64,000 bases of DNA from Vicinamibacteria bacterium (GTDB lineage Bacteria > Acidobacteriota > Vicinamibacteria > Marinacidobacterales > Marinacidobacteraceae): positions 1,568,001 through 1,632,000 of the forward strand of contig CAXXLQ010000004.1 of NCBI GenBank assembly GCA_963668695.2, in the 5' to 3' direction. Position 1 is the first letter of the stretch, and the number at the start of each line of letters is the position of its first letter. Position numbers and translations under genes: made by a program. Of this stretch, positions 7,360-63,210 are shown piece by piece. The notes under the pieces were generated by a model, which searched no databases, was not told the origin of the DNA, and was given only the letters and a program-made list of their open reading frames with translations.

Positions 7360-7521
7360 CCAGCTCGGAACTGGAGGTTCTTGCCGCCGCCCGCCTGCGG
7401 CGGGCTGTGCCGGCCTGGAGGCCGGCGGCCAGTTCTCCCGGTGGGGGCCCCTTGCCGGCGCGCCATGCCGGCTGTCGGCGTTCCGGTGCGACGGCGAGGC
7501 TACGGACTCGTTCGCGGCGCC

Positions 7522-8685
7522 TCACTCGGCGGCGCAGGTCGGCTCGGAACCGATGCGGCTCCGGTTGCGCGCGACGAGGTCGTACGCCGCCTGGCCGACG
7601 CGGTCGAAGACGGGAAAGAAGAACCCGATCATGCCGAGGATCGCGACGTTGCGCGCCCACGCGGGTCCCCAGTGCAAGCTCAGGAGAACGCCGAGCATGA
7701 CCAAATGGGTGACCGGGTTGTAGAGCAGCATCAACTTGACCGCGTGGAAGCCTTGAGCGATGTGCTTGCCGCCGGTGACGATGTGCAAACGCTTCGCGAG
7801 GGCGTCCGGGGCGATACCAAAGCGGTCGCCGATTCCACTCTGGAACGCGGTCCAGCGAAAGGCGCCGTCGAAATCGAAGGTCTCGAACCACCGTTTCGTC
7901 TTCGCGCAGATTCCGCAATCGCCGTCGTAGATGACCTCCGTCGTCGATTCGGGCCAGCGGGCGAACGCGAGATAGGCGGCGGGTGCTACGTAGAGAAACA
8001 GAACGAACGTGATTCCGGTGAAGACCGTCATCGACGCGTGAAACAGGATGCCGAGCCAAATCGCGAGAGGCCACCAGCGCGGCACGATGAAGCCGACGAA
8101 GAGGCTCAGTTCGGTCGCGATCGTCGCCCAGCCCATGAACTTGGACAGAGCCATCGGTGGCAGGAGAGCCGCGACGCGCGTGTAGAGGTCGTGCTCGATG
8201 TTGACGACGGTCCAGTGCTCGAAGAACTGACCGGAAAGCCAGTCGGGATCGAGCGCCTTGTTGAGTCCGGCGCCGAGGTAGATCAGCGCGATCTGTGCCC
8301 GCACGAGCCAGACCGACCGCTTCGACGCGTAGAGCCCGATGAGGGTGAGAATCGCCCCGCAGAAGAACGTGTTGTTGGCCCAGTAGATCCTCGACGAGGC
8401 GATCCCGACGAGTACCGTCGCACCGACCACGAAGGAAGCCAGCCGCACCCCGCGGTTGAAGATCAAACTGGCGGAGCCGACGAGGAACAGGATCTGCAGC
8501 GCGGTTCGGAACCGCACGGGATCCCCGATCCGGTCGAACACGGACACAAAGGGAAGGAACGGATCCGGGAGCGTCCACACGTGGCCGGTCGCGAGCATCG
8601 TGACAACGATGAGCTTGGCCGACAGCAGCAACGGTACGGGGAGCGGCGTGTCGCCGAGCCGCAGCGGATTCCACGACGGTTTCAT
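7522..8685 (-). CDS. HTTM-like membrane protein fused to DCC1-like (DUF393) thiol-disulfide domain
   Basis: Multi-TM region with QIALIYLGAGLNKALDPDWLSG and GILFH, followed by VIYDGDCGIC (CxxC) and AYDLVARNR. ATG at 8685 overlaps the upstream TGA (ATGA). Confidence 0.8.
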   Translation of the reverse strand: MKPSWNPLRLGDTPLPVPLLLSAKLIVVTMLATGHVWTLPDPFLPFVSVFDRIGDPVRFRTALQILFLVGSASLIFNRGVRLASFVVGATVLVGIASSRIYWANNTFFCGAILTLIGLYASKRSVWLVRAQIALIYLGAGLNKALDPDWLSGQFFEHWTVVNIEHDLYTRVAALLPPMALSKFMGWATIATELSLFVGFIVPRWWPLAIWLGILFHASMTVFTGITFVLFLYVAPAAYLAFARWPESTTEVIYDGDCGICAKTKRWFETFDFDGAFRWTAFQSGIGDRFGIAPDALAKRLHIVTGGKHIAQGFHAVKLMLLYNPVTHLVMLGVLLSLHWGPAWARNVAILGMIGFFFPVFDRVGQAAYDLVARNRSRIGSEPTCAAE

Positions 8686-9023
8686 CGTGGTGGCCATGTC
8701 CACGTCTCCTCCGGACGTCCGTTGACGGTGAAAGCGACGACGACTCGGGCGCTGTCGTCCCGGCCGTAGGTCTGCTCGTATTGCCGGACTTTGTCGAGCA
8801 CGTGCTGGACGGCCTGCCAGTTGCCGCCCTTCGCCGGCTGCCGATAGCGCGCCTCGATCGCTTCGGGGTCGAGCTCGCGCCCGTCGATGACGACCGTGAT
8901 CGAGTAGAGGTTCTGAGAGTCCATCGGCGCCCAGCAGAAGTAGCGAGACGGGACGAAGCGCGCATAGCCGATCATGGCGATCTGGAAGCCGAGAAGTCCG
9001 ATGGCGGCGAGCGTGCGTGTCAT
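8682..9023 (-). CDS. Small membrane-anchored partner protein (113 aa) of the HTTM gene
   Basis: MTRTLAAIGLLGFQIAMIGYARF hydrophobic N-terminus, YFCWAPMD motif; coupled to the HTTM gene by ATGA overlap. Confidence 0.7.
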   Translation of the reverse strand: MTRTLAAIGLLGFQIAMIGYARFVPSRYFCWAPMDSQNLYSITVVIDGRELDPEAIEARYRQPAKGGNWQAVQHVLDKVRQYEQTYGRDDSARVVVAFTVNGRPEETWTWPPR

Positions 9024-9040
9024 GCGCTTTGGACCAACCC

Positions 9041-10558
9041 CTAAGAATCGAGGATACGCGACGCACGGCGCCCAAACACGGCGCTTGCTGCCAAGCCGAC
9101 GACGACCTGAACCACGAGCGCCACCGGAGCAATCCACTGGAAGCTCACCGGGTCGCCTCCGGTCTCGGGATGGGCTCCGAAGATGGGTCCGGAGAACGCG
9201 ACGAGCACGGCCGCGGCGATACCTGCCGCGGTGCCCACGTAGGCGCCGACGGGACGCACTTGGGGAAGGAACAGCGCGAAGAGGAAGAGACCGAAAATCG
9301 GCGCGGTCAGGAGGTTCGACGTCTTGGACGTCACCTCGGTGATGTTGCCGGGGACGAGGTACATGAGGGAGCTTCCGAGCACGATGACTCCGCCGGTCGC
9401 CGCGGCGAGCCAGCGGGCCAGCCCGAGCTTGCTCGCGTCGTCGCGCGGATGCGCACGGAAGCGTCCCAGGAAGTCCGTGAGCACCACCGCTGAGATCGAG
9501 TTCACGCCGGAGTCGACGCTGGACATGGCGGCGGCGAACATGGCGGCGACGACGAGGCCCGCGATGCCGGTCGGAAGCTGGTGGCCGATGAAGAACGGGA
9601 ACACCTGGTCCGCGTCGCCGCGAAGCGACATCGCCTCGCCGAGCCGCTCGGGATGGGCCTCGAAGTAAGCGAGAAGAGCGAAGCCGACGAGCGCCAGCAC
9701 GAGCGTGACCACGGTGATGGCCGCCAACTGGGTGCGGTAGGCCCGCCGGGCCGCGCGCAGCCCGGTCGTTGCCATGAATCGCTGCACCGAAACCTGGTCG
9801 CCGCCCGCGGTGGCCGTGTACCAGACGAGCGTCGACATCAGCGTTCCGAACACGGTCACGCGCGTCGCCGGGTTCGTGCTGAACAGCGGCTGAGAGTCCC
9901 AGTTGGCATGCCACGTCGTCGGAAACCATTCGAAACCACCGAGCTCCAGGGTCACGATGCCGACAACCACCAGCGCCGCCGCGAGTAGCAGCGTGGACTG
10001 GATGCAGTCGGTGACGACGACGGCTCGCAGTCCTCCGAGGGACGTGTAGACGACCGCCACGACCGCCGTGCACAGGGCGATGAGGGGTACCGCGGATGGG
10101 CCGGCGCCGATCATCACCGTCATCGCCACCGCTGCCGCGTATACGAGAAGCGACATCCACGCGAGACGAAGAACGATGAACATCGACGCCCCGAGGAGCC
10201 GCGCCCCGGCGCCGAGGCGCACTTCGAGGAGCTCGTAGGCGCTCGTCACGCGGTGCTTCATATAGACCGGAAGCAGGCCGTAAGCGACGACGAAATAGAC
10301 GACGGGGAGCGCCAGGAGCTGAACGAGAAGGACGGGCCCCCGCCCGAGTGTTTCGCCGGGTACGGAAAGGTAGGACACCGTGCTGACGAGCGTCGCGAAC
10401 AGCGAGACGCCCACGGCGACGGGGTGAAGCCGTCCGCCCCCGACGAAGTACTCGCTCGTCGACGATTGACGTCTTCCGTAGAACCAGCCGAGCCAGAGAG
10501 TGAGACCCGCGTAGCCCGCGAGAACGAGCCAGTCGACAGCGGCCAAGCCTTGATTCAT
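9041..10558 (-). CDS. Sodium:solute symporter (SSS family)
   Basis: EYFVGG, SLFATLVSTVSYLSVPG, YTSLGGLRAVVVTD, DQVSVQRF, FAAAMSSVDSG; many TM segments. Confidence 0.92.
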   Translation of the reverse strand: MNQGLAAVDWLVLAGYAGLTLWLGWFYGRRQSSTSEYFVGGGRLHPVAVGVSLFATLVSTVSYLSVPGETLGRGPVLLVQLLALPVVYFVVAYGLLPVYMKHRVTSAYELLEVRLGAGARLLGASMFIVLRLAWMSLLVYAAAVAMTVMIGAGPSAVPLIALCTAVVAVVYTSLGGLRAVVVTDCIQSTLLLAAALVVVGIVTLELGGFEWFPTTWHANWDSQPLFSTNPATRVTVFGTLMSTLVWYTATAGGDQVSVQRFMATTGLRAARRAYRTQLAAITVVTLVLALVGFALLAYFEAHPERLGEAMSLRGDADQVFPFFIGHQLPTGIAGLVVAAMFAAAMSSVDSGVNSISAVVLTDFLGRFRAHPRDDASKLGLARWLAAATGGVIVLGSSLMYLVPGNITEVTSKTSNLLTAPIFGLFLFALFLPQVRPVGAYVGTAAGIAAAVLVAFSGPIFGAHPETGGDPVSFQWIAPVALVVQVVVGLAASAVFGRRASRILDS

Positions 10559-10605
10559 GCGCGCGGTGGCGTATAACACACTCGCGCGGAAAGGAGACTC
10601 GAACC

Positions 10606-11553: not shown

Positions 11554-11569
11554 TTACCGGATCTTTGGC

Positions 11570-12087: not shown

Positions 12088-12101
12088 ACAAACGAAAGAC
12101 C

Positions 12102-12350: not shown

Positions 12351-12366
12351 ACATCGGGCGTGCGGC

Positions 12367-15243: not shown

Positions 15244-16153
15244 CACCCTGTGGTGAAACCCAGGCGGCCCAGTTCTCCCGGTGGGGGCTCGCCCGGCGAT
15301 CCATCCCGGCCAAACAACCGGTAGCGAAACCCACGCGGCCCAGTTCTCCCGGTGGGGGCTCGGCCGGCGATCCATCCCGGCCAAACAGCCGGTAGTGAAA
15401 CCCGCGCGGCCCAGTTCTCCCGGTGGGGGCTCGGCCGGCGATCCATCCCGGCCAAACAACCGGTGATGAAACCCACGCGGCGTTCGGCCGGCGATCCATC
15501 CCGGCTGACCGCGTCGCTTCGCGCCGCTCATCGTTGCGTTTCAGTCGGAATACACCCGGTATTCCTCCCTCACGCGCCTTGTCATCCGGGCGCCTCCCCG
15601 GCCTCGGCGCTCACCCGGGTTCCACCACCGGCTGTTAACCGCGTCGCTGCGCGCCGCTCATCGTTGCGTTTCGGTCGAAATACACGCGGGCCAGTTCTCC
15701 CGGTGGGGGCTCCTCCCTCGCGCGCCTTGTCAGCCGGGCCCCCACCGGGAGGACTGGCCCCACCGGGAGAACTGGGCCTCCCCGGCCTCGGCGCTCACGT
15801 GGGTTCCACCACCGGCTGTTCACCACTGCGCTTCGCTCCGTTCTGCGTTGCGTTTCGGTCGAAATACACCCGGGCCAGTTCTCCCGGTGGCGGGCTCGGG
15901 CATTTCTCCCTCACGCTCCTCCCTCGCGCGCCTTGTCAGCCGGGCCCCCACCGGGAGGACTGGCCCCACCGGGAGAACTGGGCCTCCCCGGCCTCGGCGC
16001 TCACGTGGGTTCCACCACCGGCTGTTCACCACTGCGCTTCGCTCCGTTCTGCGTTGCGTTTCGGTCGAAATACACCCGGTATTCCTCCCTCACGCGCCTT
16101 GTCAGCCGGACCCCCACCGGGCTCGGCGCTCACCCGGGTTCCACCACAGGCTG
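15244..16153. mobile_element. Composite MITE-like repeat, copy 1 (tandemly expanded)
   Basis: Ends CACCCTGTGGTGAAACCC ... GGGTTCCACCACAGGCTG+CTAG; internal modules shared with the other nine loci. Confidence 0.8.
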
Positions 16154-16202
16154 CTAGCGGACGCAGCGAAGCGTCCGATACAGTGGCGAGCGTCGCGATG
16201 GC

Positions 16203-19138: not shown

Positions 19139-20398
19139 ATGGACCGCCATCGCGCGCTGACGCTGGCGGAGGGCGCCCGCGGCGAACTGCTCGCGCTCCT
19201 CGAGGCGCTGATCGCGGCGCCGAGCCCGTACGGCAGTTCCGCCGGAGAGGCGCAGACCCGCCTGGAGGGGTACCTGGAGCAGAACGGCTTCGCGGTCGAG
19301 ACCACGGAAGATTCCGCCGAAGCGCAGCGCGCTCATCCGGAGTTCAGCCCGCCCCCGCCGGCGGCCGAAGCTCCCGTGAACCTGGTCGCCACGCCCGCGG
19401 ACCCCGCGGGCCTCACGTTCTTCGCGCACGTGGATACCGAGGCCGTCACGGACGGTTGGTCCTCGCCGCCCTGCGAGGCAACCTTGTGGAACGGACGCGT
19501 TCATGGGCTCGGAGCCGCGGACGACAAGGGGGGTCTCGCGGCGGCGGCGGTGGCGGCGGCGCTCCTGCGGCGGCACTGCGGCCGGGCGCCGCTGCTTGCC
19601 AGCGTTCACGGAAAGGGGGGCGGGGCGCGCGGCACCCTTCCGGTCCTTGCCCGGATGTTGGCCCGGATGCTGGCCCGGATGCCGGAGGCGGGAGACTGCC
19701 TCTACGTGCATCCGCCCGAGAACGGCGCGGGCCTTGCCATCCTGAAGAACGCGAGCCGGGGCGTGCTCGATGTGGCCCTCCGGGTCACCGGCTGGTCCGG
19801 GCGGCCCCGGGAGATCGGAACCCCACAAAGCGTCCCGTTCGGGGAAGGCGGCAGCGCGCTCGATGGCTGCCTGCGGTTGGTCGAGACCCTCCGCCAGGGG
19901 GAACTCGCGGACTGCGAACTCAACCTCGGACGAGTGGTCGCCGGGGAGGCCGCCGGCCTGACGCCCGTGCGCTGCGATGCCGGGCTGCGGGTGCTGTTCC
20001 GCGGCGACCGCAGGGCCGCGGACGTGCTGGCCGCCATCCATCGTGCCGCCGCGAATCCCGCGCGTCCCGCGGCCGGCTCCGGCGAAGCGTTTCGCTTCGA
20101 GATCGCAGCGCCGGGGATTCGCGCGAATCCCGCCGAGACCCGCTGGAAGAGCGGTTTCGCAGTCCAGCTCCAGACGGCGGTCGCCGAGATCACCGGGCAG
20201 GAACCGGTCGCCTACGCCGAGCACCTGGCGAGCGACATCCGCTTCCCGATCCGCATCGGCGGGGTGTCCTCGGTCGGGGTCGGCTCCCTCGCCGGGAATT
20301 TCTACGGCCCCGACGAATGGGTGGATCTCGACGACCTGGTGCGCCTGGTGGCGGTGCTGGTGCTCTTTGGCGCGCACTGGACGGAAAGCGGCACCTAA
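19139..20398 (+). CDS. M20/ArgE-like amidohydrolase
   Basis: FAHVDT, GRVHGLGAADDKGG, GPDEWV; some metal ligands appear degenerate. Confidence 0.75.
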   Translation: MDRHRALTLAEGARGELLALLEALIAAPSPYGSSAGEAQTRLEGYLEQNGFAVETTEDSAEAQRAHPEFSPPPPAAEAPVNLVATPADPAGLTFFAHVDTEAVTDGWSSPPCEATLWNGRVHGLGAADDKGGLAAAAVAAALLRRHCGRAPLLASVHGKGGGARGTLPVLARMLARMLARMPEAGDCLYVHPPENGAGLAILKNASRGVLDVALRVTGWSGRPREIGTPQSVPFGEGGSALDGCLRLVETLRQGELADCELNLGRVVAGEAAGLTPVRCDAGLRVLFRGDRRAADVLAAIHRAAANPARPAAGSGEAFRFEIAAPGIRANPAETRWKSGFAVQLQTAVAEITGQEPVAYAEHLASDIRFPIRIGGVSSVGVGSLAGNFYGPDEWVDLDDLVRLVAVLVLFGAHWTESGT

Positions 20399-20684
20399 CA
20401 GCCTGTGGCAAAACCCACGCGGCGTTCGAGCGGCGATCCATCCCGCCAAACAGCCTGTGGTGGAACCCAGGCGGCGTTCGGCCGGCGATCCATCCCGGCT
20501 GAACCGCGTCGCTGCGCGCCGCTCATCGTTGCGTTTCGGTCGAAATACACCCGGGCCAGTTCTCCCGGTGGGGGCTCCTCCCTCACGCGCCTTGTCAGCC
20601 GGACCCCCACCGGGAGAACTGGGCCTCGCCCCCACCGGGAGAACTGGCCGCTCTCGGCGCTCACCCGGGTTCCACCACAGGCTG
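20399..20684. mobile_element. MITE-like repeat, copy 2
   Basis: CTAA|CAGCCTGTGGCAAAACCC ... GGGTTCCACCACAGGCTG|TTAA; both flanks contain the stop codons of the convergent neighbours. Confidence 0.85.
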
Positions 20685-21515
20685 TTAATCCCGACGCGTC
20701 GCCACCAGGAAGAGACGCCGGAACGGATAGACGGTGTAGCCGTCGGCGCGGCGCGGGTACGCCGCGCGCAAGCGCTCGCGGTACACCTCGAGGAAGCGCT
20801 CGAGGTCGGCGCCGTCCAGTCCGTTCAGGACCGGCCGGAGCCCCGTCGCCCGGACCCATTCGAGCACGGCGTCTTCGCCTTCGAGCCGGTGGAAGTACTC
20901 GGTCTCCCAGATGTCGAGCGTCGCCGCCTGGGGCGCGAGCAGGTCGTAGTACGCACCCCAATCGAGTACCCACTCGCGCGCGGCGGCAGCCGCGAGTGCC
21001 TCGTCGCCCAGCGGCGAGCCGCCTACGCCGCCGTTCGCCAGGGTCTCGCACATCAACACGTGGGACGGTTGGGAGTGACTGAGCGGCATCTGCACCGCGA
21101 GGCAACCGCGGGGGGCGAGATAGCCGAGCAGCCTGGGAAATAGCGTCGGGTGATGCTGGAGCCAGTGCAGGACGGCATTGGAGTAGATGAGTTGCGGTGC
21201 GTACTCGGGTTCCCAGTCCGCGATGTCGGCCCGGACCCACTCGCTGCGGCCCGGTTCTGCGGAGGCTTTGGCCAGCATCTCCGGGGAACTGTCGAGACCG
21301 ATCACGCGGGCGGTGGGGAACCGTTCCGCGATGATCCGGGTGACGGCCCCGGTGCCGCATCCGAGGTCGTAGACGAGCGACGCATCGGTGACCGGCACCC
21401 GGTGCAGGAGCTCAAGCGCCGGGCGAAACCGGTGGTCGCCGAACCTCTGGTACTGGTCCGGGTCCCAGGCGGCGCCCCTGGGTCGGAAGCGCCGGGACTC
21501 GCGCGTCGGGTCCAT
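20685..21515 (-). CDS. tam: Trans-aconitate 2-methyltransferase-like SAM methyltransferase
   Basis: WDPDQYQRF..HRFRPALELL, DLGCGTG, SNAVLHW, LAVQMP, PFRRLFLVA. Confidence 0.88.
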   Translation of the reverse strand: MDPTRESRRFRPRGAAWDPDQYQRFGDHRFRPALELLHRVPVTDASLVYDLGCGTGAVTRIIAERFPTARVIGLDSSPEMLAKASAEPGRSEWVRADIADWEPEYAPQLIYSNAVLHWLQHHPTLFPRLLGYLAPRGCLAVQMPLSHSQPSHVLMCETLANGGVGGSPLGDEALAAAAAREWVLDWGAYYDLLAPQAATLDIWETEYFHRLEGEDAVLEWVRATGLRPVLNGLDGADLERFLEVYRERLRAAYPRRADGYTVYPFRRLFLVATRRD

Positions 21516-28394: not shown

Positions 28395-28414
28395 CGGGCG
28401 AACTCGCTCGCTAA

Positions 28415-28795
28415 CAGCCTGTGGTGAAACCCACGTGAGCGCCGAGACGGGCGAGGCCCAGTTCTCCCGGTGGGGCCAGTCCTCCCGGTGGGGGCCCGGC
28501 TGACAAGGCGCGCGAGGGAGGAGCCCCCACCGGGAGGACTGGCCCGGGTGTATTTCGACCGAAGCGCAACGCAGAGCCCCGCGAAGCGGGGCGGTGAACA
28601 GCCGGCGGTGGAACCCGCGTGAGCGCCGAGGCCGGCGAGGCGCCCGCCTGACAAGGCGCGTGAGGGAGGAGCCCCCACCGGGAGAACTGGCCCGAGTGTA
28701 TTTCGACCGAAACGCAACGATGAGCGGCGCGAAGCGGCGCGGTTCAGGCGGGATGGATCGCCGCTCGAACGCCGCGTGGGTTTCACCACAGGCTG
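28415..28795. mobile_element. MITE-like repeat, copy 3
   Basis: CTAA|CAGCCTGTGGTGAAACCC ... GGGTTTCACCACAGGCTG|TTAA, a perfect 18-bp terminal inverted repeat. Confidence 0.88.
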
Positions 28796-28836
28796 TTAAG
28801 GCCCGACGCCAACTCCGTGAGGCGAAGCGGCTGGAA

Positions 28837-33967: not shown

Positions 33968-34193
33968 GGAGAACCCCCGCACACTTCGGTGCCGAAACCG
34001 AGAGCCCAGTGGCCCCGGTGCTATCGCTCCGGACCTACGCACGCCGCGGCCACCCTTGGGTGGGCTGGCGGTGTTGCCGGAAACGCATGGATGGCGGGAG
34101 CCGCCAAGTCGGACTCCTTCGGTCGGGTATATCAGATCGGAAGGATGGGCTTCAAATGGGCAAACGTGGCAACCTGACATCTGAACGGGTTAG

Positions 34194-34533
34194 CAGCCTG
34201 TGGCAAAACCCACGCGGCCCAGTTCTCCCGGTGGGGGCTCGGCCGGCGATCCATCCCGGCCAAACAACCGGTGATGAAACCCACGCGGCCCAGTTCTCCC
34301 GGTGGGGGCTCGGCCGGCGATCCATCCCGGCTGACCGCGTCGCTGCGCGCCGCTCATCGTTGCGTTTCGGTCGAAATACACCCGGGCCAGTTCTCCCGGT
34401 GGGGGCTCCTCCCTCACGCGCCTTGTCAGCCGGGCCCCCACCGGGAGGACTGGCCCCACCGGGAGAACTGGGCCTCGCCCCCACCGGGAGAACTGGCCAA
34501 CCTCGGCGCTCACCCGGGTTTCACCACAGGCTG
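34194..34533. mobile_element. MITE-like repeat, copy 4
   Basis: TTAG|CAGCCTGTGGCAAAACCC ... GGGTTTCACCACAGGCTG. Confidence 0.85.
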
Positions 34534-34570
34534 CAGGGAACCCGTTCAGCCGATCTCGCCCCCTCCCGAG

Positions 34571-41860: not shown

Positions 41861-42828
41861 GTGGCGCTCCCGCCCGGCGCGCTGACGACGCGCTGGCGGC
41901 GCCGGCGGTGGCCCTCACCATCGCCGGGTCGGATTCCGGGGGCGGCGCCGGCATCCAGGCCGACCTCAAGACCTTTGCGGCGCACGGGGTGTACGGCCTT
42001 TCCGCGATCACGGCGGTTACCGCCCAGAACACGGTGGCGGTGACCGGGGTCCAGGAAATCGAGCCCGCGATGGTCTCCGCCCAGATCGCGGCGGTCGTTT
42101 CCGATTTCCCGGTGGGCGCCGCGAAGACCGGGATGCTCTCCTCGGCGGCCATCATCCAGGCGGTGGCGAAGGCGGTGGATCGCCACGGTCTCCGGGTCGT
42201 CGTGGACCCGGTGATGGTCGCGAAGAGCGGCGACCGGCTCCTGCGGCCTGACGCCGTGGAGGCGCTCCGGGAAGAACTGTTGCCGCGGGGAGTGCTGCTC
42301 ACCCCGAACCTTCCCGAGGCGTCCGACCTCACCGGCCTTCCGGTAGCGGACGAAACGCAGATGCGCGCGGCCGGCGAAAAGCTGCTCGGCATGGGCGCGC
42401 GGGCGGTATTGATGAAGGGAGGCCACCTTCCGGGGGACGACATCGTGGACCTGTTCCTCGACGGCTGCCGTGTCGTTTCCTTCCGTGGACGACGGATCAG
42501 GACCCGCGCCACGCACGGAACCGGCTGCACCCTCTCGGCCGCGGTGGCGGCGAACCTCGCCCTCGGCCGGGAGATGCTCGAGGCAGTGAAGCGGGCGCGG
42601 GAATACCTGCGGACAGCGATGCTGCGGGCCGTTCCGCTCGGTTCGGGCCACGGGCCGCTCGGGCACCTTCCGGCTGCTGACGTGATGGAACGGTTCCGCA
42701 TTACCTCTCAGCCGGGGAACGCCGCCAGTTCTCCCGGCGGGGGCCTTCAGACCGGCATCGCCGTCTCCCTTGGTCGGAGCAGGCCGAACCCCAGCCTCGG
42801 AACCAATGGCCGGATTTCTCGCTCGTAG
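41857..42828 (+). CDS. thiD: HMP/HMP-P kinase
   Basis: LTIAGSDSGGGAGIQADLKT, VTAQNT, VVDPVM, TPNLPEA, HGTGCTLS, GHGPL; atypical tail of about 50 aa. Confidence 0.95.
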   Translation: MSGAPARRADDALAAPAVALTIAGSDSGGGAGIQADLKTFAAHGVYGLSAITAVTAQNTVAVTGVQEIEPAMVSAQIAAVVSDFPVGAAKTGMLSSAAIIQAVAKAVDRHGLRVVVDPVMVAKSGDRLLRPDAVEALREELLPRGVLLTPNLPEASDLTGLPVADETQMRAAGEKLLGMGARAVLMKGGHLPGDDIVDLFLDGCRVVSFRGRRIRTRATHGTGCTLSAAVAANLALGREMLEAVKRAREYLRTAMLRAVPLGSGHGPLGHLPAADVMERFRITSQPGNAASSPGGGLQTGIAVSLGRSRPNPSLGTNGRISRS

Positions 42829-46423: not shown

Positions 46424-46444
46424 GGTAGTGAAAGGCAAGCTTAG

Positions 46445-46677
46445 CAACCTGTGGTGAAACCCAGGCGGCGTTCGAGCGGCGATGCATCCCGGCTGAACCG
46501 CCCCCCCACCGGGAGAACTGGCGCTTTGCGGCGCTCGGCGTTGCGTTTCGGTCGAAATACACTCGGGCCAGTTCTCCCGGTGGGGGCTCCTCCCTCACGC
46601 GCCTTGTCAGCCGGACCCCCACCGGGAGAACTGGGCCTCGCCGCTCTCGGCGCTCACCCGGGTTCCACCACCGGCTG
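46445..46677. mobile_element. MITE-like repeat, copy 5
   Basis: TTAG|CAACCTGTGGTGAAACCC ... GGGTTCCACCACCGGCTG. Confidence 0.82.
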
Positions 46678-46723
46678 CTCGGCCGCCGGCCCGGAAATGG
46701 GCCTTCGGCGGGATCCGCGGTAA

Positions 46724-52791: not shown

Positions 52792-53040
52792 GGTCTGGGT
52801 TCGGGCGCCGGAGGAGTCTGATGAGTGGGGGAATCCCACGGCTGAAAGACACTGTATCCGGCCCCGGTGACAAATCACGCCACCTCTGGAGGGGTGGGTG
52901 GCGGAGGTCCACCCGGACCGAGGGTCAGAATCCCCGGGAGGACTTCCGCGAAACCGGCACGGTGCGTATTGCGCGTTTCGCTGCCGTCCGGGCAGCGGTG
53001 CCGGTCAGAGGCCCCACCGGGAGAACTGGCCGGCGCTCCT

Positions 53041-53138
53041 TGGCGGAAGCGTGTGGGAATCGAACCCACCATCCCGGGGACTAACCCGGAATCAACGGAT
53101 TTGAAGTCCGCGGAGGCCGCCAGACCCCATGCGCTTCC
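53041..53138 (-). tRNA. selC: tRNA-Sec (anticodon UCA)
   Basis: GGAAGCGC...CU-UCA-AA; 6-bp D stem with 4-nt loop, long variable arm, 8/5 fold, GCCA end. Confidence 0.93.
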
Positions 53139-54078: not shown

Positions 54079-54116
54079 GCCGTTTTGGGGCGATCTGTTC
54101 GCCCCCCCGGGGTTAG

Positions 54117-54350
54117 CAGCCTGTGGTGAAACCCAGGCGGCCCAGTTCTCCCGGTGGGGGCTCGAGCGGCGATCCATCCCGGCTGAACCACTCCGCTTCG
54201 CTCCGTTCTGCGTTGCGTTTCGGTCGAAATACACCCGGGCCAGTTCTCCCGGTGGGGGCTCCTCCCTCACGCGCCTTGTCAGCCGGGCGCCTCGCCCCCA
54301 CCGGGAGAACTGGCCGCTCTCGGCGCTCACCCGGGTTCCACCACAGGCTG
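54117..54350. mobile_element. MITE-like repeat, copy 6
   Basis: TTAG|CAGCCTGTGGTGAAACCC ... GGGTTCCACCACAGGCTG|TCAG; abuts the dctM stop. Confidence 0.85.
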
Positions 54351-55643
54351 TCAGGGTCCGGCTCTCCCAAGAACCAGGTCCGGAAGGAAGAGGGCCGCCT
54401 CCGGCCAGAAGGTGACGATTCCCAGCACCACCAGCAGCGCCGCGATGAAGAACACGTTGACCCGCATCACCGCCGATATCTCGGTCTTGGCGATCGAGCA
54501 GGTGGTGATGAGCACCGAGGCGACGGGCGGTGTCTGCTGCCCTACCGCGAGGCTCACGGTCACCATCATCCCGAAATGCACGGTGCCAATCCCCGCCGAT
54601 TCGGCGAGCGGCAGCAGGATGGGCACGAGGAGAACGATGGCCGCGGCGCTGTGCAGGATGGTTCCGGCGAGCAGCAGCACGCCGTTCAGGATCAGGGCGA
54701 CCGCCCAGGGGGAGTCCGCGAGTGAGAGCACCCACCCGGTCAGCCGCTCGGGCGCCTGCTGGTTCGCCAGGTACCAACCGAGGACCGCCGATCCCGCGAC
54801 CAGCAGCATGACGACCGCCGTCTGCCGGGCCGATTCCGTGAAGGCGTCGCGGATGGCCGTGAAACCAACGGTCCGGTACCCGGCGACTCCCATCAGCAGC
54901 GCGAGCAACACCGCGACTGCCGCCGCTTCGGTGGCGGTGAACCAGCCGAGGAAGATGCCGCCGAGGATCACGGCCGGGATGAGCAGCGGCCAGGCGGCGG
55001 CCCGGGCGGCGGTGACGGCCCGCGACCAGCGAAAGGGCTCCGAGTCCCCGAACCCGCCCCGGCGGGCGAGCATCCGGCTCACCACCATGATCAAGGCCCC
55101 GGCGAGCACCCCGGGAACTACTCCGGCGAGGAACAGGCGGGCGATCGAGGCCCCCGTCACGGCGCCGTAGAGGATCATCGGGATGGACGGAGGGATGAGG
55201 ATCGCAATGGTCGCCGAGGAGGAGAGCACCGCTGCGGCGAAAGCGGCGGGATAGCCGCGCTCCTTCATCGCGGGTATCAGCACGCTCCCGAGGGCGGCCG
55301 CGTCGGCCACCGCCGAGCCCGACATCTCGGAGAACAGCATGCTCGAGGCGGTGGTGGTCATCGCCAGTCCCCCGCGCATCCAGCCGACGATCGAGGAGGC
55401 AAAATCGGTGAGGCGACGGGAGATGCCCGCGTGGTTCATCAGCGAACCAGCGAGGATGAAGAGCGGAATCGCGACCAGCGGGAAGGAATCGGTCCCGTTG
55501 AACAGCCGAAGGGGAACGACCACCAGTGGAGTTGAGGTGGTAAGCCAGATGGCGAGAACGGATGCGGCGATCAGGACGTACCCGATCGGAATCCCGACCA
55601 GGATGAGCGCCGCCGCCGCGATCAGCGCGGTGAGGATCTCCAC
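54351..55643 (-). CDS. dctM: TRAP large permease
   Basis: AIPLFILAG, SGSAVAD, LIPPSIPMILY, FTATEA, HFG, TPPV. Confidence 0.95.
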   Translation of the reverse strand: MEILTALIAAAALILVGIPIGYVLIAASVLAIWLTTSTPLVVVPLRLFNGTDSFPLVAIPLFILAGSLMNHAGISRRLTDFASSIVGWMRGGLAMTTTASSMLFSEMSGSAVADAAALGSVLIPAMKERGYPAAFAAAVLSSSATIAILIPPSIPMILYGAVTGASIARLFLAGVVPGVLAGALIMVVSRMLARRGGFGDSEPFRWSRAVTAARAAAWPLLIPAVILGGIFLGWFTATEAAAVAVLLALLMGVAGYRTVGFTAIRDAFTESARQTAVVMLLVAGSAVLGWYLANQQAPERLTGWVLSLADSPWAVALILNGVLLLAGTILHSAAAIVLLVPILLPLAESAGIGTVHFGMMVTVSLAVGQQTPPVASVLITTCSIAKTEISAVMRVNVFFIAALLVVLGIVTFWPEAALFLPDLVLGRAGP

Positions 55644-55651
55644 TGTCTCAA

Positions 55652-55902
55652 CAGCCGGTGGTGGAACCCGGGTGAGCGCCGAGCCCGGTGAGGCCCAGTT
55701 CTCCCGGTGGGGCCAGTTCTCCCGGTGGGGGCCCGGCTGACAAGGCGCGTGAGGGAGGAGCCCCCACCGGGAGAACTGGCCCGGGTGTATTTCGACCGAA
55801 ACGCAACGCAGAACGAAGCGAAGCAGAGTGGTTCATCCGGGATGGATCGCCGGGCGAGCTCCCACCGGGAGAACTGGACCGCTTGGGTTTCAGCACAGGC
55901 TG
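55652..55902. mobile_element. MITE-like repeat, copy 7 (inside the TRAP operon)
   Basis: TCAA|CAGCCGGTGGTGGAACCC ... GGGTTTCAGCACAGGCTG|TTGA. Confidence 0.85.
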
Positions 55903-55913
55903 TTGAGATCGGC

Positions 55914-59519: not shown

Positions 59520-59568
59520 ACCTGAATCCTCCTAAGAGATTAAGGATGGCGAAGATACCGCAGGCCGG

Positions 59569-60109
59569 CAGCCGGTAGTGGAGCCCGGGTGAGCGCCGAG
59601 GCCGGCCAGTCCTCCCGGTGGGGGCGAGGCGCCCGGCTGACAAGGCGCGTGAGGGAGGAATACCGGGTGTATTTCGACCGAAACGCAACGATGAGCGGCG
59701 CGCAGCGACGCGGGTAACAGCCGGTGGTGGAACCCACGTGAGCGCCGAGGCCGGCGAGGCCCAGTTCTCCCGGTGGGGCCAGTTCTCCCGGTGGGGGCCC
59801 GGCTGACGAGGCGCGTGAGGGAGGAATACCGAGTGTATTTCGACCGAAGCGCAACGATGAGCGGCGCGCAGCGACGCGGTTCAACCGGGATGGATCGCCG
59901 GCCGAACGCCGCGCGGGTTTCATCACCGGCTGTTCAACCGGGATGGATCGCCGGCCGAACGCCGCGCGGGTTTCATCACCGGCTGTTTGGCCGGGATGGA
60001 TCGCCGGCCGAACGGCGCGCGGGTTTCATTACCGGCTGTTTGGCCGGGATGGATCGCCGGCCGAGCCCCCACCGGGAGAACTGGGCCGCGCGGGTTCCAC
60101 TACCGGCTG
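59569..60109. mobile_element. MITE-like repeat, copy 8 (expanded)
   Basis: CAGCCGGTAGTGGAGCCC ... GGGTTCCACTACCGGCTG|CTAG; internal module tandemly repeated. Confidence 0.82.
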
Positions 60110-60134
60110 CTAGCCGGCCCCGGGTGGTCAGACC

Positions 60135-60728
60135 TCACAGGTAGCGCGCGAGCGAGGCGCGGCGCGAGCGGCGGTTGCTGCCGCCGAGTCGCTTGGAGAG
60201 ATACACCTTGGAATCGCCGTTGTAGATTGGATGCGGCTCGTACTTGACGACGTCGAAATGCAGGTGGGTGAGGGTGCTGCGCATCTCGTAGTAGCGGTTC
60301 TTGGTCTTCACCACGATTTCCCGGAATCCCTTCTCGATGGCCCACTCTTCCTGGAACTCGTCCAACGCGCGGAAATGGCCCTGGCCGCGCCAGTCGCTTC
60401 TCGTGCCTCCGAGCCAGGCATAGAGAACGCGCTGCCCCGAAAAGCGCACCGCCTGCCGGAGCCGTTCCACCAGATCCGCGAGTTCCGGATCCGTCTCCTC
60501 GCTCCGGATTTCGTGGGCTACCCGGTAGGACACCGGCGCGAACCGCGTCGGCTCCTCGGGAAGGCTCGCCTCCACCATGAAGATTCCGTGCTCCCGGCCT
60601 TCGAGACGTTCCTGGATCTGCGCCGCCGTCTTCTTGCGGTCGAACTCCCCAAAGAACTCCTCGATGAACTGGATTTCGAGCGAACCGATCTCCAGCGGGT
60701 ACTGCCGGATACGGAAGGGCTGGTCCAC
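60135..60728 (-). CDS. GNAT-family acetyltransferase
   Basis: YAWLGGTRSDWRGQGHF, WAIEKGF, VKTKNRYYEM. Confidence 0.85.
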   Translation of the reverse strand: MDQPFRIRQYPLEIGSLEIQFIEEFFGEFDRKKTAAQIQERLEGREHGIFMVEASLPEEPTRFAPVSYRVAHEIRSEETDPELADLVERLRQAVRFSGQRVLYAWLGGTRSDWRGQGHFRALDEFQEEWAIEKGFREIVVKTKNRYYEMRSTLTHLHFDVVKYEPHPIYNGDSKVYLSKRLGGSNRRSRRASLARYL

Positions 60729-60733
60729 GCTAG

Positions 60734-61506
60734 CAGCCGGTGGGCAAGGTCACGTACGCACCGAGGCCCCCACCGGGAGAACTGGCGGTGAGGCGCCCGG
60801 CTGACAAGGCGCGCGAGGGAGGAGCCCCCACCGGGAGAACTGGCCCGAGTGTATTTCGACCGAAGCGCAACGACGAGCAACGCGAAGCGCCAGTTCTCCC
60901 GGTGGGGGGGCGGTTCAGCCGGGATGCATCGCCGGTCGCTTCCGGAGCGGGGCGGGAGCACCGCGGAGACCCCGGAGCGGAAGGGACGGGGGACGGGGAG
61001 ACCCGGCTCCGATCCCTCTTGGCTCGGGCTTCCGGAGCGGGGCGGGAGCACCGCGGAGACCCCGGAGCGGAAGGGACGGGGGGCGGGGCCACCCGGCTCC
61101 GATCCCTCTTGGCTCGGGCTTCCGGAGCGGGGCGGGAGCACCGCGGAGACCCCGGAGCGGAAGGGACGGGGGGCGGGGCCACCCGACCCCGATCCCTCTT
61201 GGCTCGGGCTTCCGGAGCGGGGCGGGAGCACCGCGGAGACCCCGGAGCGGAAGGGACGGGGGGCGGGGCCACCCGACCCCGATCCCTCTTGGCTCGGGCT
61301 TCCGGAGCGGGGCGGGAGCACCGCGGAGACCCCGGAGCGGAAGGGACGGGGGGCGGGGCCACCCGACCCCGATCCCTCTTGGCTCGGGCTTCCGGAGCGG
61401 GGCGGGAGCACCGCGGAGACCCCGGAGCGGAAGGGACGGGGGGCGGGGCCACCCGACCACCATCCCTTCTGGCTCGGGAATGCCTCGTGACTTTGTTCAC
61501 GGGCTG
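60734..61506. mobile_element. MITE-like repeat, copy 9, enclosing a 90-bp tandem array
   Basis: CTAG|CAGCCGGTGGGCAAGGTCAC ... GTGACTTTGTTCACGGGCTG (16/20 inverted match). Confidence 0.7.
60938..61477. repeat. 90-bp G-rich tandem repeat x6
   Basis: TCCGGAGCGG recurs at 60941, 61031, 61121, 61211, 61301 and 61391. Confidence 0.95.
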
Positions 61507-61512
61507 CTTCCT

Positions 61513-62814
61513 TCAGGGAGCGGCGGGATGCGGCCACAGGCGTCCGCGGCCCCCGAGTTCTTCCTCGATCCGGAGGAGTTCGTTGTACTTGGCGACGCGC
61601 TCGCCGCGGCACGGCGCACCGGCCTTGATCTGGCCGGCGCCCGTTGCGACGACAAGGTGGGAAATCGCGGTGTCCGGAGTTTCACCGGACCGGTGGCTCA
61701 ACATCGCTCCGAGGCCCGCCCGGAGTGCGCCCTGGACGACCTGTACCGTCTCGGTCAGCGTGCCCACCTGATTGGGCTTGATCAGGATGGCGTTCGCGGC
61801 TCCTTCTGCGATGCCGCGCTGCAGTCGGCTGTCCTGGGTCACGAAAAGGTCGTCGCCCACCAGTTGGACGCGATCGCCCAGGGTCCGGGTCAACGCGGTC
61901 CAACCCTCCCAATCGTCTTCGGCAAGGCCGTCCTCAATGGAAACCAGCGCCGGAAAACGGTCGAGCCAACCCGCGTAGAGCTCGATCATCGCCTCGGCGG
62001 GGCTCGGCGGCGCGTCCGGGTGGAAGTGGTAGCCGTTCTCATCGCTGAATTCGTTCGCCGCGACGTCGAGGGCGAGCCCCATTTGCTCGCCGGGCGCAAA
62101 GCCGGCCCCCTCGATCGCTTCCACCAACAGGTCCAGCGCCTCACCCGCATCGGAGAGCGCGGGGGCGAACCCTCCTTCGTCTCCCACCGCGGTTGAGTGC
62201 CCGCGCTTCCCGAGCACGTCACGCAACTCGTGGTACACGCCAACTCCCGCCCGCAGTGCGTCCGAGAACCCGGAAAATCCGAGCGGAACCACCATGAACT
62301 CCTGTACCAGCAGGGCGTTGTCGGCGTGGGCGCCGCCGTTCAGCACGTTGAAATAGGGAACCGGAAGCGTGTCGGCGATCGCGCCGCCGAGCGCCCGGTA
62401 GAGCGGCAGTCCGGCGGCCTCGGCGGCGGCTCGGGCGCTCGCTAGCGAGACCGCGAGAATCGCATTCGCCCCCAGCCCGGAGCGATCCTCCGAACCGTCG
62501 AGTTCGATCATGAGCCGGTCGACCGTCGCCTGGTCGGCGGCGTCTTCGCCGGCGAGTTCGGGGCCGATCTGTTCCTCAATGGCCGTGATCGCTCCCAGCA
62601 CGCCGCGGCCGCGGTAGCGGTCCGGGTCCTGGTCTCGGCGCTCGACGGCTTCGTGACGGCCGGTGGAGGCTCCGGACGGCACCGCGGCGCGCCCCCGGGC
62701 GCCGCCCACGAGCCAGACCTCGGCTTCCACCGTCGGATTCCCTCGCGAATCGAGGATCTCCCGGGCCGCAATCCGATCGATCCAGGTGTCGCTCTCGTCC
62801 ATTCGCCGGGTCAT
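61513..62814 (-). CDS. eno: Enolase
   Basis: [54 protein letters not shown]. Confidence 0.97.
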
Positions 62815-62854
62815 GGGTCGTATTTCGACCGTCTCAGGCGGTTCCGCCGTCTAA

Positions 62855-63210
62855 TAGCCTGTGGATAAGGTGGCGTGAGCGCCGAGACTGGCCAGTCCTC
62901 CCGGTGGGGGCGAGGCGCCCGGCTGACAAGGCGGGCGAGGGAGGAATACGGCGTTCGCCGAGCAACCCCATGACGCCGCCGAACCTTAGCAGCCTGTGGT
63001 GAAACCCATGCGGCGTTCGCCCGGCGATGCATCCCGGCTGAACCACTCCGCTTTGCTCCGTTCTGCGTTGCGTTTCGGTCGAAATACACCCGGTATTCCT
63101 CCCTCACGCGCCTTGTCAGCCGGGCGCCTCACCGGGCTCGGCGCTCACCTGGGTTCCACCACCGGCTACTAGCAGCCTATGGACAAGATGACGCGGCGTT
63201 CGACTGGCGC
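62855..63210. mobile_element. MITE-like repeat cluster, copy 10 (adjacent or nested ends)
   Basis: Ends at 62855 (CTAA|TAGCCTGTGG), 62990 (TTAG|CAGCCTGTGG), 63168 and 63173 (CTAG|CAGCCTATGG). Confidence 0.78.

What the first reader, a model, noticed from the sequence alone, without database searches (positions are those of the whole stretch)
7428..62910. 17-bp cassette CCCACCGGGAGAACTGG behaves as an independent insertable unit nested in a MITE family
Seen: roughly 40 copies by hand count, including a GGAGGAC variant. The same MITE module occurs with and without it at several different internal sites, in both orientations, replacing only 1-3 nt. Examples: cacgcggc[GT]tcggcc (~15473) vs cacgcggc[CCAGTTCTCCCGGTGGGGGC]tcggcc (~15332); cacccgg[TAT]tcctcc (~16072) vs cacccgg[GCCAGTTCTCCCGGTGGGGGC]tcctcc (~20548); gtcagccggg[C]gcctc (~63115) vs a tandem double cassette (~15729). 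Solo copies lie outside any MITE: ~7428 (end of the 31/33-bp array), ~42725 (thiD tail), ~53012 (just past the tRNA-Sec 3' end). It has a mini-hairpin (CTCCC-GGT-GGGGG), and inverted pairs form REPIN-like doublets. Inference: a repeat-within-a-repeat written into DNA by a dedicated enzyme (RAYT/HUH-like or templated insertion), or a HIP1/uptake-like selected motif. No driver gene is visible in the window.
Basis: partly seen in the sequence, partly recalled or inferred. Interest (0 to 1): 0.8.

Follow-up and report, generated by a model that had tools for sequence, protein, structure and literature searches.

The report
Eighteen-base mobile cassette inside repeats
An 18-21 base DNA cassette occurs about 1,600 times in this acidobacterial genome and has inserted into other repeats and, in frame, into housekeeping genes, which makes it one of the smallest mobile DNA units described; how it moves is unknown.

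Summary
The 17-mer has 34 exact and 9 one-mismatch copies in the window and 1296 exact copies (1648 with up to 2 mismatches) in the 4.1 Mb genome. A Markov model expects under 0.1.

The real unit is about 20 nt: [G/C/A]C-CCCCACCGGGAGAACTGG. It replaces 1-3 target bases, adds a net 18 or 19 nt, and makes no target duplication.

It lies at 8 or more sites of a ~195-nt MITE (865 hits) and at 4 or more sites of a second small hairpin repeat, the "H element".

Three lineage-specific, in-frame 18-nt insertions sit in housekeeping genes: an RND pump, coaBC and mfd. Outgroups show each is a gain. One precise 19-nt loss is also shown.

Strain-variant duplicates within the assembly differ by 10 cassette gains or losses inside otherwise identical repeats. 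Cassette states are uncoupled from the MITE backbone tree and its SNPs.

The same 17-mer occurs in 21 of 25 genomes of the family (G000 included) and in none of 16 genomes from sister families.

This genome has no RAYT/Y1 gene and no reverse transcriptase, so the driver is unknown. The closest known kind is the cyanobacterial "small dispersed repeats".

The parts
7380..7470 (+). H element with one cassette (7429-7445, minus orientation) inserted just after CCGGCG. It lies at the end of an unrelated 33-nt tandem array.
   Evidence: read by eye.
15253..15481 (+). Tandem array (71-nt period) of the MITE-A left-end module. Three units are filled at site 33 (cassettes 15269-15285, 15340-15356, 15411-15427, all minus). 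The last unit is empty (GT).
15452..16160 (+). One full MITE-A and three partial copies. The first (15452-15638) is empty at all sites. The others hold cassettes at 15691(-), 15741(+, G variant), 15759(+), 15875(-, 1 mismatch), 15947(+, G variant) and 15965(+). The copy at 16028-16160 is empty at site 115 (TAT).
20394..20690 (+). MITE-A left-end unit plus a full copy. Site 33 is empty. Cassettes lie at 20556(-, site 115), 20606(+, site 144) and 20631(+, site 150).
28409..28801 (-). Two MITE-A hits on the minus strand with cassettes at 28458(-), 28476(-, G variant), 28526(+, G variant) and 28674(+).
34187..34535 (+). MITE-A with an extra left-end unit and six cassettes: 34219(-), 34290(-), 34387(-), 34437(+, G variant), 34455(+), 34480(+). 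The whole element is absent from the orthologous site in G001 and G004.
   Evidence: One contig of run X1 skips 34188-34550.
42716..42795 (-). H element on the minus strand with a one-mismatch cassette (42725-42741). It is part of a ~184-nt stretch absent from G001 and G008.
46438..46680 (+). MITE-A with cassettes at 46505(+, site 67), 46568(-, site 115) and 46618(+, site 144). Absent from G001.
52968..53041 (+). H element with a cassette (53013-53029, plus), next to the 3' end of tRNA-Sec (53045-53138, minus). Absent from G001 and G004.
54111..54354 (+). MITE-A with cassettes at 54142(-, site 33), 54240(-, site 115) and 54297(+, site 150). G001 has an independent MITE-A insertion at a second TTAG 25 nt away.
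55645..55908 (-). MITE-A on the minus strand with cassettes at 55695(-), 55713(-), 55763(+) and 55861(+). Absent from G001 and G004.
59568..60090 (-). Cluster of MITE-A copies and left-end units on the minus strand, with cassettes at 59606(-, G variant), 59761(-), 59779(-) and 60068(+).
60729..60938 (-). MITE-A on the minus strand with cassettes at 60769(+), 60827(+) and 60890(-).
62849..63171 (.). A partial MITE-A (62849-62951, minus) holding the G-variant cassette 62892-62908(-), and a full copy without cassettes (62984-63171, plus).

Best explanation
The cassette is a very small, non-autonomous mobile DNA module. Its core is CCCCACCGGGAGAACTGG, usually carried with 1-2 extra bases on the left and 0-2 on the right. 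It enters DNA as a unit of about 20 nt that replaces 1-3 target bases, adds a net 18-19 nt, makes no target duplication, and goes in either orientation.

Shown: it has inserted de novo into at least 15 different sites, three of them in unique protein-coding genes. It can also be lost precisely.

Inferred: most of its ~1,650 copies come from hitch-hiking in two carrier repeats that are themselves highly mobile (a ~195-nt MITE and a ~60-nt double-hairpin H element), together with frequent in-situ switching of cassette state at a few fixed carrier sites.

Inferred, not shown: insertion is carried out by a trans-acting machinery conserved in this acidobacterial family that recognises the 17-18-nt core. 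That would explain why the core is identical across genera and about ten times less variable than its carriers. The machinery is not a RAYT/Y1 transposase or a reverse transcriptase encoded in this genome. A templated copy-in that sometimes drags along 1-2 donor-flank bases fits the junctions best.
For: 1. Excess: 1296 exact copies against 0.007-0.076 expected.

2. Unit size: full-length MITE hits differ in length by about 0, 19, 37, 55 or 73 nt. Inserts are 18, 19 or 36 nt long at HMM positions 33, 59, 64, 67, 75, 115, 144 and 149-152.

3. Second carrier: H elements occur empty and filled, with 85 + 33 + 32 cassette copies at three different H sites. A further site is seen at window 7429.

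4. Gains with polarity:
- RND pump: an 18-nt, 6-aa insert in G000 (both haplotypes) and G001, absent from 14 of 14 other congeneric orthologs and from outgroup G026.
- coaBC: present in 1 of 10 congeners aligned and 0 of 2 outgroups.
- mfd: present in 1 of 8 congeners aligned and 0 of 1 outgroup.

5. Loss with polarity: one H element is filled in one haplotype and in G001, and empty in the other haplotype. The difference is a 19-nt deletion between GGCC repeats.

6. Strain level: in 275 kb of 97.5-99.7% identical duplicated assembly, 10 of 34 indel records of 8 nt or more are cassette differences. Flanks are identical over +-130 nt except for the 1-3 junction bases. About 105 cassettes lie in that sequence.

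7. Uncoupling from the backbone: 42 of 96 possible state combinations occur in 402 copies. State changes on the backbone tree are 118, 34, 124, 103 and 100, against shuffled means of 125.7, 40.6, 131.6, 109.9 and 105.2. Held-out backbone SNPs cluster strongly instead, for example 8 changes against 92.8. Cassette-SNP r2 is 0.012 overall and 0.020 within 25 nt, against SNP-SNP r2 of 0.132 at 6-25 nt.

8. Conservation: cassette per-base identity is 0.991, against a backbone column majority of 0.90.

9. Distribution: the exact 17-mer is found in 15 of 15 congeners (5-636 copies each, against 1296 in G000), 5 of 9 other genomes of the family, and 0 of 16 genomes of two sister families. It sits in different contexts in other genera.

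10. Simple excision scars (filled site minus 18 nt) are rare at MITE sites 115 and 144: 2 against 166 and 2 against 311 pristine empty sites.
Against: - No enzyme was found, and no mechanism is known that swaps 2 nt for 20 nt.
- Recurrent identical junctions at the same MITE sites, the absence of excision scars and the lack of linkage are also what frequent very-short-patch gene conversion among ~640 MITE copies would give. The backbone itself is mosaic (SNP-SNP r2 only 0.13 at 6-25 nt). Most state changes inside carriers therefore need not be new insertions.
- Polarity of the MITE-internal strain differences could not be set, because those MITE copies are absent from G001 and G004.
- The targets share no clear consensus. 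There is only a GC-rich, often CG-flanked or quasi-palindromic tendency, seen by eye.
- The donor-flank idea rests on 2-3 junctions.
- In-gene inserts being exactly 18 nt may only reflect selection for an intact reading frame.
Confidence: 0.8

Rival explanations
1. Mosaic repeat family only. The cassette is one module of BIME-like modular repeats. It entered each site once long ago, and today's pattern comes from carrier amplification plus short-patch gene conversion or slippage between copies. No insertion activity specific to the cassette exists.
For: - Each MITE site has one fixed junction, and empty sites are uniform (GT, TAT, GC).
- No excision scars.
- The backbone is itself mosaic, with low SNP-SNP linkage.
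- Tandem 18-nt doubles, and arrays of up to 4-5 units, point to slippage.
- Partial 13-nt re-duplications occur in another genus.
Against: - Conversion needs a homologous recipient, yet the cassette entered three unique genes and at least 12 sites in unrelated carriers.
- Ten strain-level switches show no co-converted flank changes beyond 1-3 nt.
- Cassette-SNP linkage within 25 nt (0.020) is below SNP-SNP linkage (0.132).
- The 17-mer is identical across genera while the carriers diverge.
Confidence: 0.12
2. REP/REPIN-RAYT system. The cassette, or the H element that carries it, is a REP sequence moved by a domesticated Y1 (HUH) transposase.
For: - H elements are REP-like hairpins, and inverted cassette pairs resemble REPINs.
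- 13 of 15 congeners carry 1-2 RAYT-like genes with an HVH motif and a C-terminal Tyr region.
- A single IS110 sits inside an H hairpin, as IS110-family elements are reported to do in REPs. The REP-targeting habit is recalled and supported by the reference title seen.
Against: - G000, the genome with the most copies, has no Y1_Tnp match and no homolog of G001's protein at E <= 10.
- G004 (636 copies), G018 (221) and G019 (36) also have none, while genomes with 6-13 copies do.
- Only 1 of 8 RAYT loci has a cassette within 1.5 kb.
- The cassette alone forms no significant hairpin.
Confidence: 0.05
3. Selected sequence motif. The 17-mer is kept and multiplied because a host protein or process uses it, for example DNA uptake, nucleoid binding or termination. 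Its abundance would reflect selection rather than mobility.
For: - Exact conservation across genera and within the genome: 79% of copies are exact.
- Even spacing and equal strand use.
- No stop codon in any of the six frames (my own reading of the 18-mer).
Against: - Copies arise as 18-nt insertions, not by point mutation.
- Nearly all lie inside mobile repeats: 1272 of 1648 in MITE-A.
- Copy number ranges from 5 to 1296 among species of one genus, which is hard to square with a needed host function.
Confidence: 0.03

Closest known systems
Small dispersed repeats (SDR) of heterocyst-forming cyanobacteria: Elhai et al. [quoted passage not shown]
   Same: Dispersed repeats of about 20 nt, thought to be mobile, and far below MITE size. 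Title and citation were seen in the reference lists of PMC3116915 and PMC2884548; the latter describes them as 'some 20 bp long ... might be mobile'. From recall, not seen: 21-27 nt long, found nested in other repeats, compared with and without the insert, and no enzyme known.
   Different: Unrelated sequence and a different phylum (Acidobacteriota). The unit is smaller (18-21 nt). Shown here, and not known to me for SDRs: a fixed swap of about 20 nt for about 2 nt, in-frame insertions in three housekeeping genes with outgroup polarity, strain-level turnover, and conservation of the exact core across genera. The paper itself is not held, so this comparison may be incomplete.
REP / REPIN / BIME elements with RAYT (TnpA-REP) transposases
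   Same: Short, highly repeated extragenic units. Both occur singly, in inverted pairs and in mosaic clusters with other modules, and both are targets for IS110-type insertion sequences.
   Different: The cassette is not a palindrome. No RAYT is present in this genome, and cassette number does not track RAYT presence in relatives.
Rickettsia palindromic elements (RPE)
   Same: Small repeats that insert in frame into protein-coding genes and add a peptide segment (recalled).
   Different: RPEs are about 100-150 nt and palindromic (recalled). Here the insert is 18 nt (6 aa) and not palindromic.
Nested MITEs and modular repeats such as pneumococcal BOX elements or Correia-element length variants
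   Same: Host repeats that exist with a variable number of internal modules (recalled).
   Different: Those modules are not known to enter unrelated repeats or unique genes. Here the same module sits in two unrelated carriers and in three genes.

Membership tests
MITE (miniature inverted-repeat transposable element) | Terminal inverted repeats | tested here: not met
   The 18-21-nt unit has at most 3-4 complementary end bases and folds no better than shuffles. By contrast the ~195-nt carrier has clear inverted ends.
MITE (miniature inverted-repeat transposable element) | Target-site duplication on insertion | tested here: not met
   The junctions in three genes and at the carrier sites show replacement of 1-3 nt with no duplication.
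REP/REPIN-RAYT | Imperfect palindrome (hairpin) in the repeat unit | tested here: not met
   Cassette alone: -2.3 kcal/mol, z = +0.41.
REP/REPIN-RAYT | A cognate RAYT (Y1_Tnp) gene in the genome, usually flanked by the repeat | tested here: not met
   0 Y1_Tnp matches in G000. No homolog of G001's RAYT-like protein at E <= 10. Only 1 of 8 RAYT loci in congeners has a cassette nearby. The genome scores 91.7% complete by marker genes, in 4 contigs.
Small dispersed repeats (SDR, cyanobacteria) | Dispersed, near-identical units of about 20-27 nt with signs of mobility (same context seen with and without the unit) | tested here: met
   18-21 nt, 1648 copies, 79% exact. Filled and empty pairs occur in paralogous repeats and in orthologous genes. 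The definition of the family is partly recalled, because the paper is not held.
Small dispersed repeats (SDR, cyanobacteria) | Sequence relatedness to SDR1-8 or occurrence in cyanobacteria | not testable with these tools
The exact 17-mer was seen only in acidobacterial records plus single hits in other taxa that look like chance.
Retro-element product (retron, DGR, group II intron) | A reverse transcriptase gene in the genome | tested here: not met
   0 RVT_1 matches in G000.
IS200/IS605-derived palindrome-associated elements | A Y1 TnpA in the genome and insertion 3' of a fixed tetra- or pentanucleotide | tested here: not met
   No Y1_Tnp. Left flanks of the sites differ (GAAG, AGGA, CCCG, CCGC, CCTC and others).
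DNA uptake sequences / HIP1-type selected words | Copies arise by point mutation within ordinary sequence, including genes, under biased fixation | tested here: not met
   Copies are 18-nt insertions relative to orthologs. 1272 of 1648 lie in one MITE family.

The most novel reading that the evidence does not exclude
The cassette is moved by a previously undescribed insertion machinery that is not HUH/RAYT, not a reverse transcriptase, and not a DDE transposase making target duplications. This machinery is conserved in a family of Acidobacteria whose related records and holding runs are labelled as sponge-derived. It writes a fixed oligonucleotide of about 20 nt into DNA in exchange for 1-3 bases, preferentially at GC-rich quasi-palindromes and hairpin repeats. 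That would make the cassette the smallest actively mobile DNA element known and a natural short-tag writer.
Probability: 0.35. Interest if true: 0.9.

Novelty: new variant of a known kind. Interest (0 to 1): 0.75.

Why it matters
Mobile DNA is usually thought to need at least two enzyme-binding ends, which sets a floor of some tens to hundreds of bases. A unit of about 20 nt challenges that view: it enters unrelated repeats and unique genes, adds exactly six codons to conserved proteins, turns over between strains that differ by about 1%, and keeps an identical core across genera.

Together with the little-studied cyanobacterial SDRs, this points to a class of very small mobile elements whose mechanism is still open. 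This genome, its strain variants and its congeners (5 to 1296 copies) form a natural comparative series in which the driver could be found by phyletic profiling.

Practical consequences:
- Such cassettes create 18-nt indels in genes that can be mistaken for assembly errors.
- They break short-read assemblies.
- They may serve as very fast strain markers in symbiont populations.

Tried and rejected
- Rfam: nothing beyond tRNA-Sec and a tRNA at gathering score. Only chance-level hits at E <= 10 over an H element and the MITE cluster.
- Footprint of a larger element: no excess of half-cassettes, since prefix and suffix counts fall smoothly.
- Excision scars: rare at sites 115 and 144, with a slight excess only in H (6 G against 1 C and 1 T). 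The 10-11-nt patterns for sites 33 and 67 are too unspecific in this GC-rich genome, and my H 'filled' pattern was faulty and returned 0.
- An apparent orthologous MITE with different cassette content in G000 and G001 (54111-54354) proved to be two independent MITE insertions at TTAG sites 25 nt apart, so I dropped it as evidence.
- Outgroup polarity for MITE-internal strain differences: the polymorphic MITE copies are absent from G001 and G004.
- Public runs: only Logan contigs were served, and they break at the MITE, so cassette states could not be read. Joints inside the MITE come from other copies.
- Viral contigs: one hit to the exact 18-mer in an AT-richer unique context, taken as chance.
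- Driver candidates: Y1_Tnp, RVT_1 and IS110. IS110 copy number (0-11) does not follow cassette number.
- Genes flanked by cassettes: 83 candidates were listed but not scanned. The +/- orientation excess follows trivially from MITE anatomy.
- H-element census by nhmmer: 270 hits, 29 with a cassette. The 59-state model misses most filled copies, so context clustering is the better count.
- Folding of an empty MITE places some sites in loops or junctions, but the fold is weak (z = -2.05) and I draw no rule from it.
- Literature: no paper in the library holds the 17-mer on either strand. 'Marinacidobacterium' gave 0 papers. 'Poriferihabitaceae' gave 1 genome note, seen as a listing only.
- Elhai et al. 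2008 is not held.
Full report
**1. The observation**

The 17-mer CCCACCGGGAGAACTGG occurs 34 times exactly in the window, where dinucleotide shuffles give none. Allowing up to two mismatches gives 43 copies; all nine inexact copies have one mismatch, and seven are the GGAGGAC variant.

The whole genome is 4.10 Mb in 4 contigs at 67% GC. It holds 1296 exact copies and 1648 copies within two mismatches, 159 of them the GGAGGAC variant. Markov models expect 0.007 (order 3) or 0.076 (order 5) copies. Copies are spread evenly and use both strands equally.

**2. What the unit is**

A logo of 1295 oriented copies stays conserved from three bases before the 17-mer to about three bases after it, and then collapses.

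I built a profile from 75 cassette-free copies of the host repeat. It finds 865 hits, 446 of them near full length. The cassette appears in these hits as inserts of 18, 19 or 36 nt. The main profile positions are 33, 67, 115, 144 and 149-152, and rarer ones are 59, 64, 75 and others.

At every site the filled form differs from the empty form by a unit of about 20 nt, [G/C/A]C-CCCCACCGGGAGAACTGG with sometimes one more base. This unit stands in place of 1-3 bases (GT, TAT, AA, TC, GC). The net gain is 18 or 19 nt and there is no target duplication. On its own the cassette does not fold better than shuffles (z = +0.41). Inverted pairs of cassettes do.

**3. The carriers**

Of the 1648 copies, 1272 lie in the ~195-nt MITE, which I call MITE-A. 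Most of the other 376 fall into two groups:
- tandem arrays of the MITE-A left end (72 copies);
- a second repeat, the H element.

The H element is about 60 nt long and consists of two GC-rich hairpins closed by GGGAG...CTCC. It occurs empty (56 exact seeds; 270 profile hits) and filled at several sites, with 85, 33 and 32 copies in three contexts.

Both carriers are themselves very mobile. Most MITE-A and H copies of the window are cleanly absent from the syntenic regions of three congeners that are 89-97% identical in the surrounding genes.

**4. Proof of insertion into unique DNA**

Three in-frame gene insertions were found.
- RND transporter gene. G000 (both haplotypes) and its nearest relative G001 carry an in-frame 18-nt insertion reading ...PHRENW.... 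It is missing from all 14 other congeneric orthologs and from an out-family ortholog. At the DNA level, GAGCCCG[CG]CGGG became GAGCCCG[GCCCCCACCGGGAGAACTGG]CGGG.
- coaBC. In low-copy congeners the cassette also sits in this gene: in G010 only, of 10 congeners aligned plus 2 outgroups. The cassette lies on the other strand and reads SSPGG.
- mfd. G012 only, of 8 congeners aligned plus 1 outgroup, reading PPGEL.

These are three independent, derived events. Each adds exactly six codons, and each is read in a different cassette frame.

**5. Loss**

One H element is filled in one haplotype of this assembly and in the G001 ortholog, but empty in the other haplotype. The loss is a 19-nt deletion between GGCC repeats. 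It leaves CTGAAGGCCGG, whereas never-filled copies read CTGAAGACCGG. One site-115 cassette shows a partial 15-nt deletion in one haplotype.

**6. Turnover between strains**

The assembly contains strain-variant duplicates: the two ends of C4, C1 against C4:304-421 kb, and C3 against C4:3505-3538 kb. In 275 kb of aligned duplicate there are 34 indel records of 8 nt or more. Ten are cassette differences inside otherwise identical MITE-A or H copies, and one more is ambiguous. Five of the six 18-nt indels are cassettes.

Around each difference, 130 nt on either side are identical except for the 1-3 junction bases: ATA against the 21-mer, or GGGC|GCC against GGAC plus cassette. About 105 cassettes lie in this sequence, so roughly one in ten differs at about 1% nucleotide divergence. 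Two of the polymorphic MITE loci are absent from G001 and G004. These are therefore young copies that changed in place.

**7. Uncoupling from the carrier's history**

Among 402 non-redundant full-length MITE-A copies, 42 of 96 possible cassette-state combinations occur.

On a tree built from backbone columns with the insertion sites left out, cassette states change almost as often as shuffled labels. Observed changes are 118, 34, 124, 103 and 100, against shuffled means of 125.7, 40.6, 131.6, 109.9 and 105.2. Held-out backbone SNPs cluster strongly on equivalent trees: 8 changes against 92.8, 6 against 94.9, 45 against 124.7, and at the weakest 77 against 98.9.

Mean r2 between cassette states and backbone SNPs is 0.012, or 0.020 within 25 nt. 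SNP pairs 6-25 nt apart give 0.132. The strongest association of any cassette state is with another cassette site (sites 33 and 115, r2 = 0.19).

Simple excision scars are rare at sites 115 and 144 (2 against 166 and 2 against 311 pristine empty sites). Empty sites there are therefore mostly original, or restored from a template.

**8. Conservation and distribution**

Cassette bases are 99.1% identical across 791 copies in full-length MITE-A, whereas backbone columns average a 90% majority.

The exact 17-mer occurs in 15 of 15 congeners (5-636 copies each, against 1296 in G000), in 5 of 9 other genomes of the family, and in 0 of 16 genomes from two sister families.

Nearly all came from records titled Acidobacteria or Vicinamibacteria MAGs, several of them 'Candidatus Marinacidobacterium'. 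The few hits in other phyla lack the CC prefix and sit in unique coding-like DNA, so I take them as chance. One exception is a 6-kb contig filed under Gammaproteobacteria that carries H elements. Runs holding the window's sequence are labelled sponge metagenomes. In other genera the cassette sits in other contexts.

**9. Mechanism: what can and cannot be said**

The following are excluded for this genome:
- a RAYT/Y1 enzyme;
- a reverse transcriptase;
- a larger element leaving half-sites;
- a DDE-type event with target duplication (junctions).

RAYT-like genes do exist in 13 of 15 congeners, but they do not follow cassette number and only 1 of 8 such loci has a cassette nearby. IS110 copies (0-11 per genome) do not follow cassette number either. 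The single IS110 here has inserted inside an H hairpin.

Targets share only a GC-rich tendency and often a CG just right of the insert. The three gene targets are short quasi-palindromes hit near their centre; this is my own reading and is weak.

In G010 and G012 the extra right-junction bases (T, TG) match the flank of resident cassette copies in those genomes. This hints at a templated copy that sometimes includes donor-flank bases, but it rests on only two or three junctions.

For the frequent switching at fixed carrier sites I cannot separate site-specific re-insertion from very-short-patch conversion between carrier copies. The de novo insertions into genes and into unrelated carriers need a true insertion process.

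**10. Comparison with known systems and verdict**

The closest known kind is the small dispersed repeats of cyanobacteria (Elhai et al. 2008). I saw that paper only as a citation and a one-line description; it is not held, and the details I give are recalled. REP/REPIN-RAYT, MITE, retro-element and uptake-sequence memberships each fail a defining feature tested here. No paper in the library contains the 17-mer.

Verdict:
- Its central inference, an independently insertable repeat within a repeat, is supported and extended.
- Its proposed drivers are not supported.
- The mechanism remains open.

Noticed in passing
Genome contigs: C4:9354-148038 vs C4:3775642-3913787; C1 vs C4:304-421 kb; C3 vs C4:3505-3538 kb: The assembly holds strain-variant duplicates that are mostly 97.5-99.9% identical (some blocks 92-96%). 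The two ends of C4 overlap by about 138 kb. This probably explains the 9.3% 'contamination' figure, and it gave a built-in two-strain comparison.
   Followed up: yes
G000:C4:482090-483880 (L001:1210-2985): The genome's single IS110-family element (415-aa ORF) is inserted inside the second hairpin of an H-type element. The hairpin halves CCGACCGGAGGTC and CGGCGTTCCC flank it. Two filled H elements lie 100-200 nt upstream.
   Followed up: partly
window 6060-7358: A large tandem array of about 36 units of 31-33 nt with a constant GAACATGTCGCAGTAGC core and two alternating spacers (64-nt super-period). It is unrelated to the cassette and its function is unknown.
   Followed up: no
window 60938-61478; also 5026-5587: A 90-nt tandem repeat (6 copies, 98% identical) and a 72/105-nt tandem repeat region (93-97% identical). 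They may be coding repeats.
   Followed up: no
window 34187-34535, 46438-46680, 54111-54354, 55645-55908 compared with G001/G004: MITE-A ends read TTAG/TTAA-CAGCCTGTGG...CCACAGGCTG-TTAA/CTAG, and empty sites read TTCGG, TTAG or CTCGAA. G000 and G001 carry independent insertions at two TTAG sites 25 nt apart. This suggests a transposase with TTAG-like target preference. No autonomous partner was looked for.
   Followed up: partly
MITE-A profile columns 8-25 vs 168-188: SNPs in the left and right terminal repeats of MITE-A are correlated (mean r2 = 0.37 at 140-160 nt apart), more than SNPs 20-130 nt apart (0.05-0.10). The two ends co-vary, as expected if both must fit one transposase variant or pair with each other.
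   Followed up: no
L226 (G001:C17:2354585-2355424) and 7 other loci in congeners: A RAYT-like gene (HVH motif and a C-terminal YIRNN region; matches Y1_Tnp positions 40-121 only) occurs in 13 of 15 congeners. It is missing from G000, G004 and G015.
   Followed up: partly
L201 (G000:C4:2098527-2098997), coaBC: G000's own coaBC has a different 12-residue Pro/Gly/Asp/Ser-rich insertion about 10 residues upstream, in the same variable stretch where G010 carries the cassette. This stretch tolerates length change.
   Followed up: no
L060 (a 6.1-kb contig of a record titled Gammaproteobacteria MAG): It carries two cassettes in typical H-element contexts. The contig is probably a mis-binned acidobacterial fragment.
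   Followed up: no
L021, L022, L038, L039, L055 (records titled Vicinamibacteria MAG): In another genus the cassette is often followed by partial re-duplications of its 3' half (CCGGGAGAACTGG-like, about 13 nt). This looks like local slippage.
   Followed up: no
L209, L210, L212, L213 (mfd region of G010, G006, G014, G013): The search reports one in-frame TGA within the N-terminal extension of the mfd match in four congeners. The true start codon probably lies downstream of it.
   Followed up: no
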